Shown one piece after another: positions 1,813 through 15,807 of a stretch of DNA of 64,000 bases (within the stretch, counting starts at the first letter, position 1; each line of letters begins with the position of its first letter). Where the stretch lies: the NCBI RefSeq assembly GCF_030384885.1, contig NZ_CP128613.1. One strand, written 5' to 3'. This DNA is from Escherichia coli. GTDB lineage: Bacteria; Pseudomonadota; Gammaproteobacteria; Enterobacterales; Enterobacteriaceae. Position numbers and translations under genes: made by a program. The notes beneath the pieces are model-generated. The model was not told the DNA's origin. It did not search any database and saw only the letters and a program-made list of their open reading frames with translations.

Positions 1813-2040
1813 AGAAAAAAGCCAGCAGATAATCACTGCTGGCGTGGCGATTAACACCAATACTCAGTCACACATGATGTCCGCAAATCAGTAGTCAGAA
1901 TGACTCCCCTCCCACTGCATCAGCTCTTCAAGCATGGTTAATCGTTGTGGGACGCTTAACCAACGCAACCAGCACAACGTCGCTGTCGCGGTAAAATAGT
2001 GCTGATAAAACTGACGCATGGGGCACCTCCTTGCTTCATC
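1813..2040 (-). ncRNA. sgrS: SgrS small RNA (glucose-phosphate stress), ends approximate
   Basis: Minus strand reads GATGAAGCAAGG…CCCCATGCGTCAG (sgrS 5' end and sgrT start), the conserved GAGUAUUGGUGU seed, and a terminal hairpin GCCAGCAG-N7-CUGCUGGC followed by a U-run; divergent from sgrR. Confidence 0.85.
1888..2019 (-). CDS. sgrT: SgrT, 43-aa peptide encoded within sgrS
   Basis: MRQFYQHYFTATATLCWLRWLSVPQRLTMLEELMQWEGSHSDY; the ORF-track entry 1888..2187 is over-extended upstream of this ATG. Confidence 0.8.
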   Translation of the reverse strand: MRQFYQHYFTATATLCWLRWLSVPQRLTMLEELMQWEGSHSDY

Positions 2041-3794: not shown

Positions 3795-3900
3795 CGCCGT
3801 TCTCAACGGGGTGCCACGCAGACGCGTGCGCTGAGAAAATACCCGTCGAACCTGATCCGGATAACGCCGGCGAAGGGATTTGAGGCTCCTTCTCAAGTCC
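3795..3900 (+). promoter_or_regulatory. TPP riboswitch (thi box) in the thiBPQ leader
   Basis: GGGGTGCC…CTGAGAAAATACCCGTCGAACCTGATCCGGATAACGCCGGCGAAGGGA fits the thi-box consensus directly upstream of thiB. Confidence 0.85.
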
Positions 3901-12571: not shown

Positions 12572-12574
12572 GTA

Positions 12575-12678
12575 GCCGCATCAGGTATGTAACGCCTGAT
12601 GCGACGCTGACGCGTCTTATCTGGCCTACACGTTCCGATTTTGTAGGCCGGATAAGCAAAGCGCATCCGGCACGAAGG
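12575..12678. repeat. REP/BIME elements between araA and araD
   Basis: GCCGCATCAGG…CGCCTGATGCGACGC and TGTAGGCCGGATAAG…GCGCATCCGGCA palindromic units. Confidence 0.7.
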
Positions 12679-12685
12679 AGTCAAC

Positions 12686-13381
12686 ATGTTAGAAGATCTC
12701 AAACGTCAGGTTTTAGAAGCCAACCTGGCGCTGCCAAAACACAACCTGGTCACGCTGACCTGGGGCAACGTCAGCGCCGTTGATCGCGAGCGCGGCGTCT
12801 TTGTAATCAAACCTTCCGGCGTCGATTACAGCATCATGACCGCTGACGATATGGTCGTGGTCAGCATCGAAACCGGTGAAGTGGTAGAAGGTACGAAAAA
12901 GCCCTCCTCCGACACGCCAACTCACCGGCTGCTCTATCAGGCATTCCCGTCCATTGGCGGCATTGTGCATACGCACTCGCGCCACGCCACCATCTGGGCG
13001 CAGGCGGGCCAGTCAATTCCGGCAACCGGCACCACCCACGCCGACTATTTCTACGGCACCATTCCCTGCACTCGCAAAATGACCGACGCAGAAATCAACG
13101 GCGAATATGAGTGGGAAACCGGTAACGTCATCGTTGAAACTTTCGAAAAACAGGGTATCGACGCAGCGCAAATGCCTGGCGTTCTGGTCCATTCTCACGG
13201 CCCGTTTGCATGGGGTAAAAACGCTGAAGACGCAGTGCATAACGCCATCGTGCTGGAAGAAGTCGCTTATATGGGGATTTTCTGCCGCCAGCTTGCTCCG
13301 CAACTGCCTGATATGCAGCAAACATTGCTGGATAAACACTATCTGCGTAAGCATGGTGCGAAGGCATATTACGGGCAGTAA
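12686..13381 (+). CDS. araD: L-ribulose-5-phosphate 4-epimerase
   Basis: 231-aa protein recognised as AraD. Confidence 0.97.
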
Positions 13382-13384
13382 TGA

Positions 13385-13400
13385 CTGTATAAAACCACAG
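13385..13400 (+). promoter_or_regulatory. LexA (SOS) box of polB
   Basis: CTGTATAAAACCACAG fits CTGT-N8-ACAG; lies upstream of a TATAAT hexamer (13421-13426) and the polB GTG start. Confidence 0.8.
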
Positions 13401-13455
13401 CCAATCAAACGAAACCAGGCTATAATCAAGCCTGGTTTTTTGATGGAATTTCAGC

Positions 13456-15807
13456 GTGGCGCAGGCAGGTTTTATCTTAACCCGACACTGGCGGGACACC
13501 CCGCAAGGGACAGAGATCTCTTTCTGGTTAGCGACGGACAACGGGCCGTTGCAGGTTACGCTTGCACCGCAAGAGTCCGTGGCGTTTATTCCCGCCGATC
13601 AGGTTCCCCGCGCCCAGCATATTTTGCAGGGTGAACAAGGCTTTCGCCTGACGCCGCTGGCGTTAAAGGATTTTCATCGCCAGCCGGTGTATGGCCTTTA
13701 CTGTCGCGCCCATCGCCAGTTAATGAATTACGAAAAGCGCCTGCGTGAAGGTGGCGTTACCGTCTACGAGGCCGATGTGCGCCCGCCGGAACGCTATCTG
13801 ATGGAGCGGTTTATCACCTCTCCGGTGTGGGTCGAGGGTGATATGCGCAATGGCGCTATCGTTAATGCCCGTCTGAAACCGCATCCCGACTACCGCCCGC
13901 CGCTCAAGTGGGTTTCTATTGATATTGAAACTACCCGCCACGGTGAACTGTACTGCATCGGTCTGGAAGGCTGCGGGCAGCGCATCGTTTATATGCTGGG
14001 GCCGGAGAATGGCGATGCCTCCGCGCTTGATTTCGAACTGGAGTACGTCGCCAGTCGTCCGCAGCTGCTGGAAAAACTCAACGCCTGGTTTGCTAACCAC
14101 GATCCTGATGTGATCATCGGCTGGAACGTGGTGCAGTTCGATCTGCGAATGCTGCAAAAACATGCCGAGCGCTACCGTATTCCACTGCGTCTGGGGCGCG
14201 ATAACAGTGAGCTGGAGTGGCGCGAGCATGGCTTTAAAAACGGTGTGTTTTTTGCCCAGGCTAAAGGTCGGCTAATTATCGACGGTATCGAGGCGCTGAA
14301 ATCTGCATTCTGGAATTTCTCTTCGTTCTCGCTGGAAACCGTCGCTCAGGAGTTATTAGGCGAAGGAAAATCTATCGATAACCCGTGGGATCGGATGGAC
14401 GAAATTGACCGCCGTTTCGCCGAAGATAAACCTGCCCTGGCGACTTATAACCTGAAAGATTGCGAGCTGGTGACGCAGATCTTCCACAAAACTGAAATCA
14501 TGCCGTTTCTACTCGAACGGGCGACGGTGAACGGCCTCCCAGTAGATCGGCACGGGGGATCGGTGGCGGCGTTTGGTCATCTCTATTTTCCGCGAATGCA
14601 TCGCGCTGGTTATGTCGCGCCTAATCTCGGCGAAGTGCCGCCGCACGCCAGCCCTGGCGGCTACGTGATGGATTCACGGCCAGGGCTTTATGATTCGGTG
14701 CTGGTGCTGGACTACAAAAGCCTGTACCCGTCGATCATCCGCACCTATCTGATTGATCCCGTCGGGCTGGTGGAAGGCATGGCGCAGCCTGATCCAGAGC
14801 ACAGCACCGAAGGCTTTCTCGATGCCTGGTTCTCGCGGGAGAAACATTGCCTGCCGGAGATTGTGACTAACATCTGGCACGGGCGCGATGAAGCCAAACG
14901 CCAGGGCAATAAGCCACTGTCGCAGGCGCTGAAGATCATCATGAATGCCTTTTATGGCGTGCTCGGGACTACCGCCTGTCGCTTCTTCGATCCCCGCCTG
15001 GCGTCGTCAATCACCATGCGTGGTCATCAGATCATGCGGCAAACCAAAGCGTTGATTGAAGCGCAGGGCTATGACGTAATCTACGGCGATACTGACTCAA
15101 CGTTTGTCTGGCTGAAAGGCGCACATTCGGAAGAAGAAGCGGCGAAAATCGGTCGTGCACTGGTGCAGCACGTTAACGCCTGGTGGGCAGAAACGTTGCA
15201 ACAGCAACGGCTGACTAGCGCATTAGAACTGGAGTATGAAACCCATTTCTGCCGTTTTCTGATGCCAACCATTCGTGGAGCCGATACGGGCAGCAAAAAG
15301 CGCTATGCCGGGCTGATTCAGGAAGGCGATAAACAACGGATGGTGTTTAAAGGGCTGGAAACCGTACGCACCGACTGGACACCGCTGGCCCAGCAGTTTC
15401 AGCAGGAGCTATATCTACGTATCTTCCGCAACGAGCCATATCAGGAATACGTTCGCGAAACCATCGACAAACTGATGGCAGGCGAACTGGATGCACGGCT
15501 GGTTTACCGTAAACGCCTTCGCCGTCCACTGAGCGAATATCAGCGTAATGTGCCGCCTCATGTACGCGCCGCTCGCCTTGCCGATGAAGAAAACCAAAAG
15601 CGCGGTCGCCCCTTGCAATATCAGAACCGCGGCACCATTAAGTACGTCTGGACCACCAACGGCCCGGAGCCGCTGGACTACCAACGTTCACCACTGGATT
15701 ACGAACACTATCTGACCCGCCAGCTGCAACCGGTGGCGGAGGGAATACTCCCTTTTATTGAGGATAATTTTGCTACACTTATGACCGGGCAACTTGGGCT
15801 ATTTTGA
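13456..15807 (+). CDS. polB: DNA polymerase II
   Basis: 783-aa family-B polymerase (YGDTDS motif); GTG start. Confidence 0.96.

What the first reader, a model, noticed from the sequence alone, without database searches (positions are those of the whole stretch)
13385..13442. polB control region: LexA box plus an inverted repeat that contains the -10 hexamer
The SOS box CTGTATAAAACCACAG is followed by AAACCAGGC-TATAATCAA-GCCTGGTTTTTT. This looks like a terminator hairpin for araD, but TATAAT sits in its loop just upstream of the polB GTG start, so the same sequence may act as the araD terminator and as part of the polB promoter.
Basis: partly seen in the sequence, partly recalled or inferred. 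Interest (0 to 1): 0.25.

Follow-up and report, generated by a model that had tools for sequence, protein, structure and literature searches.

The report
araD terminator overlapping polB SOS promoter
The 74-base gap between the arabinose gene araD and the DNA polymerase II gene polB holds a LexA repressor site and a hairpin that most likely ends araD transcripts, while the hairpin's loop holds the polB promoter's -10 box; it is a neat but already charted piece of E. coli gene control.

Summary
The window is E. coli: araD ends at 13381 and polB starts with GTG at 13456. The gap holds the LexA box (13385-13400) and the inverted repeat AAACCAGGC/GCCTGGTTT (13412-13438), whose loop contains TATAAT (13421-13426), followed by T's to 13441.

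The promoter reading is supported by experiment. Two independent K-12 start-site datasets place the polB start at 65803, which is window 13433. That is 7 nt after the loop hexamer and inside the descending arm, so polB mRNA lacks the left arm and cannot form the hairpin.

Across 79 Enterobacteriaceae species the LexA box core, the 20-nt spacing and TATA[A/C]T are essentially invariant, while the other three loop bases vary freely.

The terminator reading is inferred, not shown. The RNA hairpin is stable (-16.2 kcal/mol, z = -6) and is followed by U6, 31 nt after the araD stop. It is intact in 52 of 54 species where araD abuts polB, and decayed in 13 of 23 where another gene is inserted. I found no 3'-end data from arabinose-grown cells.

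TATAAT is a strain variant: K-12 has TATACT. The finding is already known and of low interest.

The parts
12686..13381 (+). araD (L-ribulose-5-phosphate 4-epimerase), the last gene of araBAD; stop codon TAA at 13379-13381
   Evidence: ORF list; RefSeq annotation of identical and near-identical genomes
13385..13400 (.). LexA (SOS) operator CTGTATAAAACCACAG, spanning -48 to -33 relative to the polB start site
   Evidence: Sequence. The core CTGTA.A.A....CAG is invariant in 79 species. The same sequence is listed as the polB LexA motif of a UV-induced transcript. polB reporters are used as LexA targets.
13398..13403 (+). Nominal -35 position, CAGCCA (3 of 6 matches to TTGACA), overlapped by the LexA box; effectively a promoter with a very weak -35
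   Evidence: 17-nt spacing from the -10 hexamer. The scanner finds no -35/-10 pair. The column consensus across species is CAGCAn.
13412..13420 (+). Left (ascending) arm of the hairpin, AAACCAGGC; also the -21 to -13 spacer of the polB promoter
   Evidence: Folds. Very low column entropy, and retained even in species that lack the right arm.
13421..13426 (+). polB -10 hexamer TATAAT (TATACT in K-12), located in the hairpin loop
   Evidence: The mapped start site lies 7 nt downstream. Five of six positions are invariant in 79 species, while loop bases 13427-13429 vary.
13430..13441 (+). Right (descending) arm GCCTGGTTT plus the remaining T's of the T6 run at 13436-13441 (six U's in the RNA; the first three can pair with the A's of the left arm); expected release zone for araBAD transcripts
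   Evidence: Folds. U-tract score and core stem of -10.8 kcal/mol. Retained in 52 of 54 species with araD adjacent.
13433..13433 (+). polB transcription start site (K-12 position 65803), inside the descending arm; 23-nt leader to the GTG
   Evidence: Kim 2012 supplement; Yan 2018 SMRT-Cappable-seq supplement; coordinate map taken from the alignment
13456..15807 (+). polB (DNA polymerase II), GTG start codon
   Evidence: ORF list; RefSeq annotation

Best explanation
One 30-bp inverted repeat serves two adjacent transcription units.

1. As RNA read from upstream. araBAD transcripts carry both arms. They fold into a stem of about 10-11 bp with six G/C-type core pairs, followed by U6. This is an intrinsic terminator that ends araBAD messages near 13439-13443 and shields polB from arabinose-driven transcription. 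This step is inferred.

2. As DNA. The loop hexamer TATAAT is the -10 element of the sigma-70 polB promoter. The promoter has almost no -35. LexA bound at 13385-13400 (-48 to -33) blocks RNA polymerase, and LexA cleavage during the SOS response frees the promoter. The promoter, the start site and LexA regulation are shown for K-12, whose sequence differs at one loop base.

3. Why the two roles do not collide. Transcription starts at 13433, inside the descending arm. polB mRNA therefore lacks the ascending arm, cannot form the hairpin and is not terminated by it. This follows directly from the mapped start site.

The overlap is most simply a product of compaction: the gap between araD and the LexA box is only 0-3 nt in many genera.
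For: Promoter:
- Identical start site 65803 (= window 13433) in two independent datasets, one of them built from full-length 5'-triphosphate reads covering polB alone.
- The tiling-array start of the UV-induced transcript agrees.
- polB is expressed at log-TPM 4.4-6.7 while araBAD is at 0-3.8, including in samples where araB and araA read zero.
- The LexA box core and hexamer positions 1-4 and 6 are invariant in 79 species, while the other loop bases vary. The 20-nt spacing holds in 76 of the 78 loci aligned; two have 21 nt, and Siccibacter, not aligned, has 10.

Terminator:
- Hairpin of -16.2 kcal/mol, z = -6.0; core stem -10.8 kcal/mol and U-tract score 4.43.
- It lies 31 nt after the araD stop codon.
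- The hairpin is intact in 52 of 54 species with araD within 150 nt, against 10 of 23 with an inserted gene. The exact GCCTGG right arm is present in 50 of 54 against 0 of 8 where the inserted gene is divergent. About 8 independent losses are seen, and only one of them has araD adjacent.
- The stem is fully compensated in Buttiauxella (AAAGTGGTC/GACCACTTT). There is a compensated A-U to G-C change in L070 and a compensated shortened stem in Siccibacter.
Against: - No direct araD 3'-end or read-through measurement was found. Adams et al. Term-seq lists none, but those cultures had no arabinose.
- The formal covariation count on the alignment is not significant: 88% of cells are paired against 87.6% in shuffles, because both arms are almost invariant. 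Stem conservation could therefore partly reflect promoter or leader constraints.
- The left arm is more conserved than the right, and it persists without a partner in about 13 species. Termination does not explain that.
- Eight species with a co-directional inserted gene have lost the hairpin.
- The 7-nt loop is at the large end of the range for efficient terminators.
- The Kim 2012 start site rests on only 2 reads.
Confidence: 0.75

Rival explanations
1. The region is a promoter only. The inverted repeat is a by-product of conserved promoter and leader sequence, and it does not terminate araBAD transcripts to any useful extent. Those transcripts would end by Rho action or run into polB.
For: Both arms are nearly invariant, so the formal covariation test is not significant. 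The left arm is conserved even without a partner. No 3'-end data were found.
Against: The right arm decays specifically where araD is no longer adjacent, while the promoter elements stay intact. Four positions are changed on both sides and remain complementary in Buttiauxella. The U6 run follows the stem, and the energy is far from shuffled controls. polB levels are uncoupled from araBAD levels in the expression matrix, although no arabinose-induced samples were present.
Confidence: 0.12
2. The palindrome is the operator of an unknown dimeric regulator that sits over the -10 and the start site of polB. This would be a second repressor besides LexA.
For: It is a perfect inverted repeat centred on the -10 and start site. 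The left half-site is strongly conserved.
Against: The half-site centres are about 17 bp apart, roughly 1.6 helical turns, which is awkward for a dimer. Buttiauxella changes both half-sites to a different sequence while keeping complementarity, which fits a nucleic-acid stem rather than a protein site. About 13 species keep only one half-site. The literature read here treats LexA as the sole regulator of polB.
Confidence: 0.05
3. The repeat acts at the DNA level. A cruciform or single-strand hairpin exposes the -10 in its loop, making polB transcription sensitive to supercoiling or to single-stranded DNA produced during SOS, as with hairpin promoters of phage N4 or the F-plasmid Frpo.
For: The DNA hairpins are stable on both strands (-10.3 and -9.9 kcal/mol, z about -5.8). 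The -10 lies exactly in the loop. The gene is induced by DNA damage.
Against: The promoter persists unchanged in species without the right arm. An ordinary duplex promoter explains the start site 7 nt after the -10. From general knowledge, arms of 9-11 bp with a 7-9 nt spacer extrude poorly in vivo. No special polymerase is involved.
Confidence: 0.04
4. The main polB promoter lies elsewhere, for example at the start site listed inside araD at K-12 65946 (window 13290), and the loop TATAAT is incidental.
For: Kim 2012 also lists a 2-read start site at 65946 assigned to polB.
Against: A transcript from 13290 would contain the complete hairpin and U-tract. The long-read dataset reports the polB operon from 65803 only. 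The hexamer is invariant across 79 species. The LexA box would lie downstream of such a start site rather than over a promoter.
Confidence: 0.03

Closest known systems
Canonical intrinsic (Rho-independent) terminators of E. coli operons
   Same: A G/C-rich stem, a short loop, a U-run immediately 3' of the stem, an upstream A-tract complementary to the U-tract, and a position a few tens of nucleotides after the last stop codon of an operon.
   Different: The loop carries a functional -10 hexamer and the descending arm carries the start site of the next gene. The loop (7 nt after the U-A closing pair) is larger than the typical 4 nt. Termination itself has not been measured here.
LexA-repressed sigma-70 SOS promoters (recA, uvrA, dinB and others); the polB/dinA promoter itself as charted in RegulonDB/EcoCyc
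   Same: A CTG-N10-CAG operator with an A/T-rich centre that overlaps the upstream part of the promoter, and SOS inducibility. The start site found in the datasets matches the RegulonDB operon.
   Different: There is no usable -35, so the promoter relies on a consensus or near-consensus -10 and a conserved -20 to -13 spacer. The operator starts only 4 nt after the upstream gene's stop codon.
The frd terminator / ampC attenuator overlap in E. coli (Grundstrom and Jaurin 1982; recalled from memory, not checked with the tools)
   Same: One hairpin is shared between the end of an upstream operon and the control region of the next, co-directional gene in a very short intergenic space.
   Different: In ampC the downstream start site lies upstream of the hairpin, so the hairpin also attenuates ampC. 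Here the start site lies inside the descending arm, so the hairpin cannot act on polB mRNA.
Hairpin or single-strand promoters (phage N4 early promoters, F-plasmid Frpo)
   Same: Promoter elements are embedded in an inverted repeat.
   Different: Those require extruded or single-stranded DNA and special factors. The polB promoter works as an ordinary duplex promoter and survives loss of one arm in many species.

Membership tests
Intrinsic terminator | Stable G/C-rich RNA stem of about 5-14 bp with a loop of 3-8 nt | tested here: met
   11 pairs with a 7-nt loop, -16.2 kcal/mol, z = -6.0; 7-bp core -10.8 kcal/mol
Intrinsic terminator | U-rich tract directly 3' of the stem | tested here: met
   UUUUUU at 13436-13441; weighted T score 4.43. 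The scanner missed the plus strand only because it pairs three U's into the stem.
Intrinsic terminator | Lies downstream of, and co-directional with, a gene or operon end | tested here: met
   31 nt after the araD stop codon. Hairpin intact in 52 of 54 species where araD is adjacent.
Intrinsic terminator | Base pairing maintained by compensatory change | tested here: inconclusive
   The alignment-wide count is not above shuffles. However, Buttiauxella has four doubly changed pairs, L070 has one, and Siccibacter has a shortened complementary stem.
Intrinsic terminator | Transcript 3' ends map to the U-tract, with measured termination efficiency | not testable with these tools
   No dataset from arabinose-grown cells was available. 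Adams et al. Term-seq tables list no araD end.
Sigma-70 promoter | -10 hexamer close to TATAAT | tested here: met
   TATAAT at 13421-13426; TATACT in K-12; invariant T,A,T,A,-,T in 79 species
Sigma-70 promoter | -35 hexamer close to TTGACA at 16-18 bp spacing | tested here: not met
   CAGCCA matches 3 of 6; the scanner finds no -35/-10 pair. The element still works as a promoter, probably one dominated by its -10.
Sigma-70 promoter | Experimentally mapped primary 5' end 6-8 nt after the -10 | tested here: met
   K-12 65803 = window 13433, from two datasets. This was measured in K-12, not in this strain; the intergenic sequences differ at 2 bases.
LexA (SOS) operator | CTG-N10-CAG with an A/T-rich centre (consensus CTGTATATATATACAG) | tested here: met
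   CTGTATAAAACCACAG; the conserved core is invariant in 79 species. The loose pattern is common in the window, but this is the only intergenic CTGTAT...ACAG match.
LexA (SOS) operator | Overlaps the promoter so that binding excludes RNA polymerase | tested here: met
   Spans -48 to -33 relative to the mapped start site. Spacing to the -10 is fixed at 20 nt in 76 of the 78 loci aligned.
LexA (SOS) operator | LexA binding and DNA-damage induction shown | not testable with these tools
   From the literature only: a UV-induced polB transcript with this motif, and polB reporters that behave as LexA targets.
Terminator doubling as an attenuator (frd/ampC type) | The downstream gene's start site lies upstream of the hairpin, so its own RNA forms the hairpin | tested here: not met
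   The start site at 13433 is inside the descending arm. The leader from 13433 shows no significant structure (z = -0.8).

The most novel reading that the evidence does not exclude
The overlap may be a regulatory coupling rather than mere compaction. Every RNA polymerase that transcribes araBAD in arabinose has to run through the LexA operator and the polB -10 before it is released 5-10 nt past the polB start site. Heavy araBAD transcription could therefore evict LexA or occlude the promoter, making Pol II levels depend on carbon source. Separately, the strictly conserved -20 to -13 segment AACCAGGC, which is kept even where its pairing partner is lost, could be a new promoter element or factor site that stands in for the missing -35.
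Probability: 0.12. Interest if true: 0.45.

Novelty: already known. Interest (0 to 1): 0.15.

Why it matters
This is a compact textbook-style example of how one stretch of DNA serves two neighbouring transcription units without conflict: a terminator for the upstream operon and a promoter for the next gene. Placing the start site inside the descending arm is what frees the downstream mRNA from the terminator.

There are practical consequences. araBAD deletions and insertions that remove 13412-13441 also remove the polB promoter. The TATAAT/TATACT polymorphism probably changes Pol II levels between E. coli lineages.

It does not open a new question. The LexA box, the promoter and the start site are already charted for K-12.

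Tried and rejected
- The original papers (Iwasaki 1990, Lewis 1992, Bonner 1990, Stringer 2014, Thomason 2015) are not held in the library. My recollection that Chen et al. 1990 (DNA Cell Biol 9:631) already described a LexA site over the -35 and a hairpin over the -10 could not be verified.
- Text searches for the hairpin sequence, and for polB with araD and terminator, gave only primer lists and strain tables.
- The Ettwiller 2016 supplements held here have no entry at this site. No supplements are held for Conway 2014, Choe 2022 or Grunberger 2022.
- The stored part of the PRECISE expression matrix has no arabinose-induced samples, so it cannot measure read-through.
- Rfam has no family here, only sub-threshold chance hits.
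- The alignment-wide covariation test gave no significant signal. I therefore do not claim statistical covariation, only individual compensated lineages and context-dependent decay.
- A second, degenerate LexA box that would use the CCAG of the left arm was considered and rejected: there is no CTG 10 nt upstream, and that region is variable.
- The minus-strand terminator call was set aside, because no minus-strand gene converges on this site.

Full report
**What is there**

The window is E. coli. It is 100% identical over 1.3 kb to strain 2013C-4282 and 90-99% identical to about 5400 other complete genomes. The genes araB, araA, araD, polB and rapA all lie on the plus strand.

The araD-polB gap is 74 nt (13382-13455).
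- LexA box CTGTATAAAACCACAG at 13385-13400.
- Left arm AAACCAGGC at 13412-13420.
- Loop TATAATCAA at 13421-13429.
- Right arm GCCTGGTTT at 13430-13438, then TTT at 13439-13441.
- polB GTG at 13456.

As RNA, the hairpin region folds at -16.2 kcal/mol (z = -6.0, 0 of 200 shuffles as good). The whole spacer folds at -24 kcal/mol (z = -5.2).

K-12 MG1655 differs at two bases in the spacer, one of which turns TATAAT into TATACT. I used 51-mers in which that SNP is central, so that megablast can only seed on the matching allele. About 2403 complete E. coli genomes carry the TATAAT class and about 2969 the K-12 class. The perfect -10 is therefore a common allele, not a universal feature.

**The promoter reading is backed by experiment**

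The coordinate map is window x = 79236 - K-12 position, taken from the alignment. The evidence is:
- Kim et al. 2012 list a polB start site at 65803 (minus strand; 2 reads; 23-nt leader). The printed upstream sequence ends ...GGCTATACTCAAGCCT.
- Yan et al. 2018 define a polB-only operon starting at 65803, built from full-length 5'-triphosphate long reads and scored "same" as RegulonDB.
- Position 65803 is window 13433: the T of GCCTGG, 7 nt after the loop hexamer.
- A UV tiling-array study places the start of the induced polB transcript about 47 nt after the start of the LexA motif, near 13430.
- polB reporters that carry the cloned polB promoter region behave as LexA targets.
- In the part of the PRECISE matrix that is stored, polB sits at log-TPM 4.4-6.7 while araBAD sits at 0-3.8, including in samples where araB and araA read zero.

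The LexA box therefore spans -48 to -33. The nominal -35 (CAGCCA, 13398-13403) matches the consensus at 3 of 6 positions, and the consensus scanner calls no promoter here. This is a promoter with a very weak -35 whose upstream half is covered by LexA.

**Comparative evidence**

One scan of GTDB species genomes with the PolB N-terminus returned 80 Enterobacteriaceae loci. In 78 of them plus the window (alignment A2, 79 sequences):
- The box core CTGTA.A.A....CAG is invariant.
- The distance from the box to the hexamer is 20 nt in 76 of the 78 loci, and 21 nt in the other two. Siccibacter, which was not aligned, has 10 nt.
- The hexamer is T-A-T-A-[A 70 / C 9]-T.
- The remaining three loop bases carry 0.7-1.8 bits of entropy, and the 12 nt between the box and the left arm carry 0.9-1.95 bits.

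A terminator loop is normally free to vary. An invariant hexamer next to freely varying loop bases is the signature of a -10 element.

**The terminator reading is indirect but coherent**

The anatomy is canonical:
- A 7-bp G/C-rich core of -10.8 kcal/mol.
- An A-tract and U-tract extension of the stem.
- A 7-nt loop.
- A U6 run.
- A position 31 nt after the araD stop codon.

araD lies upstream of polB in 76 of the 80 loci; the other four are cut by a contig end (L005, L015, L041) or could not be classified (L068). About 23 species have 240-1400 nt inserted between the two genes. The inserts include:
- a DUF4751 gene on the opposite strand (Salmonella and several Citrobacter);
- a DUF218 gene on the same strand (Phytobacter, Buttiauxella, Franconibacter, Superficieibacter and others);
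- other genes.

I counted the hairpin as intact when it had at least 7 pairs, at least 4 of them G-C. The results were:

| Context upstream of polB | Hairpin intact | Exact GCCTGG right arm |
|---|---|---|
| araD within 150 nt | 52 of 54 | 50 of 54 |
| Co-directional insert | 7 of 15 | 5 of 15 |
| Divergent insert | 3 of 8 | 0 of 8 |

The naive Fisher test gives p of about 1e-7, but the species are not independent. When the losses are ordered on a polB neighbour-joining tree, they fall into about eight events, only one of which (Pluralibacter) has araD adjacent. All of these species keep the LexA box, the spacing and the -10.

Two conclusions follow. The right arm is dispensable for the promoter. 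It is maintained where araBAD transcription arrives.

Individual lineages show compensation:
- Buttiauxella has AAAGTGGTC-TATAATCA-GACCACTTT, with four positions changed on both sides.
- L070 has AGACCAGGC/GCCTGGTCT.
- Siccibacter has AACCAGC/GCTGGTT.

Against this, the alignment-wide pair count is no better than shuffles (88.0% against 87.6% of cells paired). Both arms are almost invariant, and the Buttiauxella stem is off register in the alignment. I therefore do not claim statistical covariation.

I found no araD 3'-end data. The Term-seq tables I could search came from cultures grown without arabinose.

**How it most likely works**

Transcripts from PBAD contain both arms. They fold and terminate at the U-run. 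This step is inferred.

RNA polymerase starting at the polB promoter begins at 13433, inside the descending arm. polB mRNA (UGGUUUUUUGAUGG...) therefore lacks the ascending arm and cannot form the terminator. Its leader shows no significant structure (z = -0.8). This follows directly from the mapped start site.

LexA at -48 to -33 represses the promoter, and SOS relieves the repression (literature).

**Rivals**

- Promoter-only, with the hairpin as a by-product. The context-dependent decay of the right arm and the compensated stems argue against it.
- An operator for a second dimeric regulator. The 17-bp half-site spacing, the concerted change of both half-sites in Buttiauxella, and the species that keep only one half-site argue against it.
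- A DNA cruciform or hairpin promoter. The DNA hairpins are stable, but the promoter is unchanged in species that lack one arm.
- A start site inside araD at K-12 65946 (2 reads). Such a transcript would contain the whole terminator, and the long-read data support 65803.

**Unexplained**

The left arm AACCAGGC (-20 to -13) is more conserved than the right arm: 0-0.55 bits against 0.23-0.93 bits. It remains AAACCAGGY in the species that have lost its partner. Termination cannot explain this. It points to a promoter-spacer or extended-10-like constraint (G at -14), or to an unknown factor.

The fifth base of the -10 flips between A and C in at least six lineages, and also within E. coli.

**Comparison with known systems**

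The parts are a standard LexA operator, a sigma-70 promoter dominated by its -10, and a standard intrinsic terminator. The arrangement resembles the frd-terminator/ampC-attenuator overlap, which I recall from memory. It differs in that the downstream start site lies inside the hairpin, so there is no attenuation of polB.

Rfam has nothing at this site.

The LexA box, the promoter and the start site are already in the K-12 literature and databases. I also recall, but could not verify, that the 1990 polB sequence paper noted a hairpin over the -10.

**Verdict**

The promoter part is shown by experiment; the terminator part is inferred, at a confidence of about 0.75. The finding is already known and of low interest.

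Noticed in passing
window 13425 (fifth base of the -10 hexamer): There is an A/C polymorphism here. TATAAT (this strain) and TATACT (K-12) split the complete E. coli genomes about 2403 to 2969. The same A-to-C change recurs in at least six other enterobacterial lineages (9 of 79 species).
   Followed up: partly
window 13413-13420: The left arm AACCAGGC (-20 to -13 of the polB promoter) is more conserved than the right arm, and it persists in about 13 species that have lost the hairpin. This suggests a promoter-spacer element or a factor site unrelated to termination.
   Followed up: partly
window 13290 (K-12 65946), inside araD: Kim 2012 lists a second, 2-read start site assigned to polB. A transcript from there would cross the LexA box and end at the hairpin, giving an RNA of about 150 nt from the araD 3' end.
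   Followed up: no
L007, L009, L010, L012, L017, L020, L021, L024 (about 900-1000 nt between araD and polB): Salmonella and several Citrobacter species carry a DUF4751 gene on the opposite strand between araD and polB. In all eight, the right arm of the hairpin is mutated or gone.
   Followed up: yes
L011, L014, L022, L027, L038, L048, L051, L062, L078: A co-directional ORF is inserted between araD and polB. Pfam confirmed it as a DUF218 gene in the five ORFs tested (L014, L027, L038, L062, L078). In L011, L027 and L078 its reading frame runs across the LexA box and stops just before the left arm. Some of these species have lost the hairpin, which suggests co-transcription with polB.
   Followed up: partly
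L056, L060, L061, L066, L067 (Kosakonia) and others: The araD stop codon directly abuts the LexA box (a gap of 0-3 nt in many genera). This shows extreme compaction of the spacer.
   Followed up: no
window 12572-12685: The araA-araD spacer contains REP-like palindromes (gcctgatgcgacgc and ggccggataagc motifs).
   Followed up: no
window 1814-2040 (-), 3797-3896 (+), 50303-50355 (-): Rfam hits above the gathering threshold: SgrS sRNA, a TPP riboswitch and ES003 sRNA.
   Followed up: no
window 12600-13900: Only 2 of 5400 E. coli genomes are at least 99% identical over this 1.3 kb, and 2111 are only 90-95% identical. The window comes from a comparatively divergent E. coli lineage.
   Followed up: no
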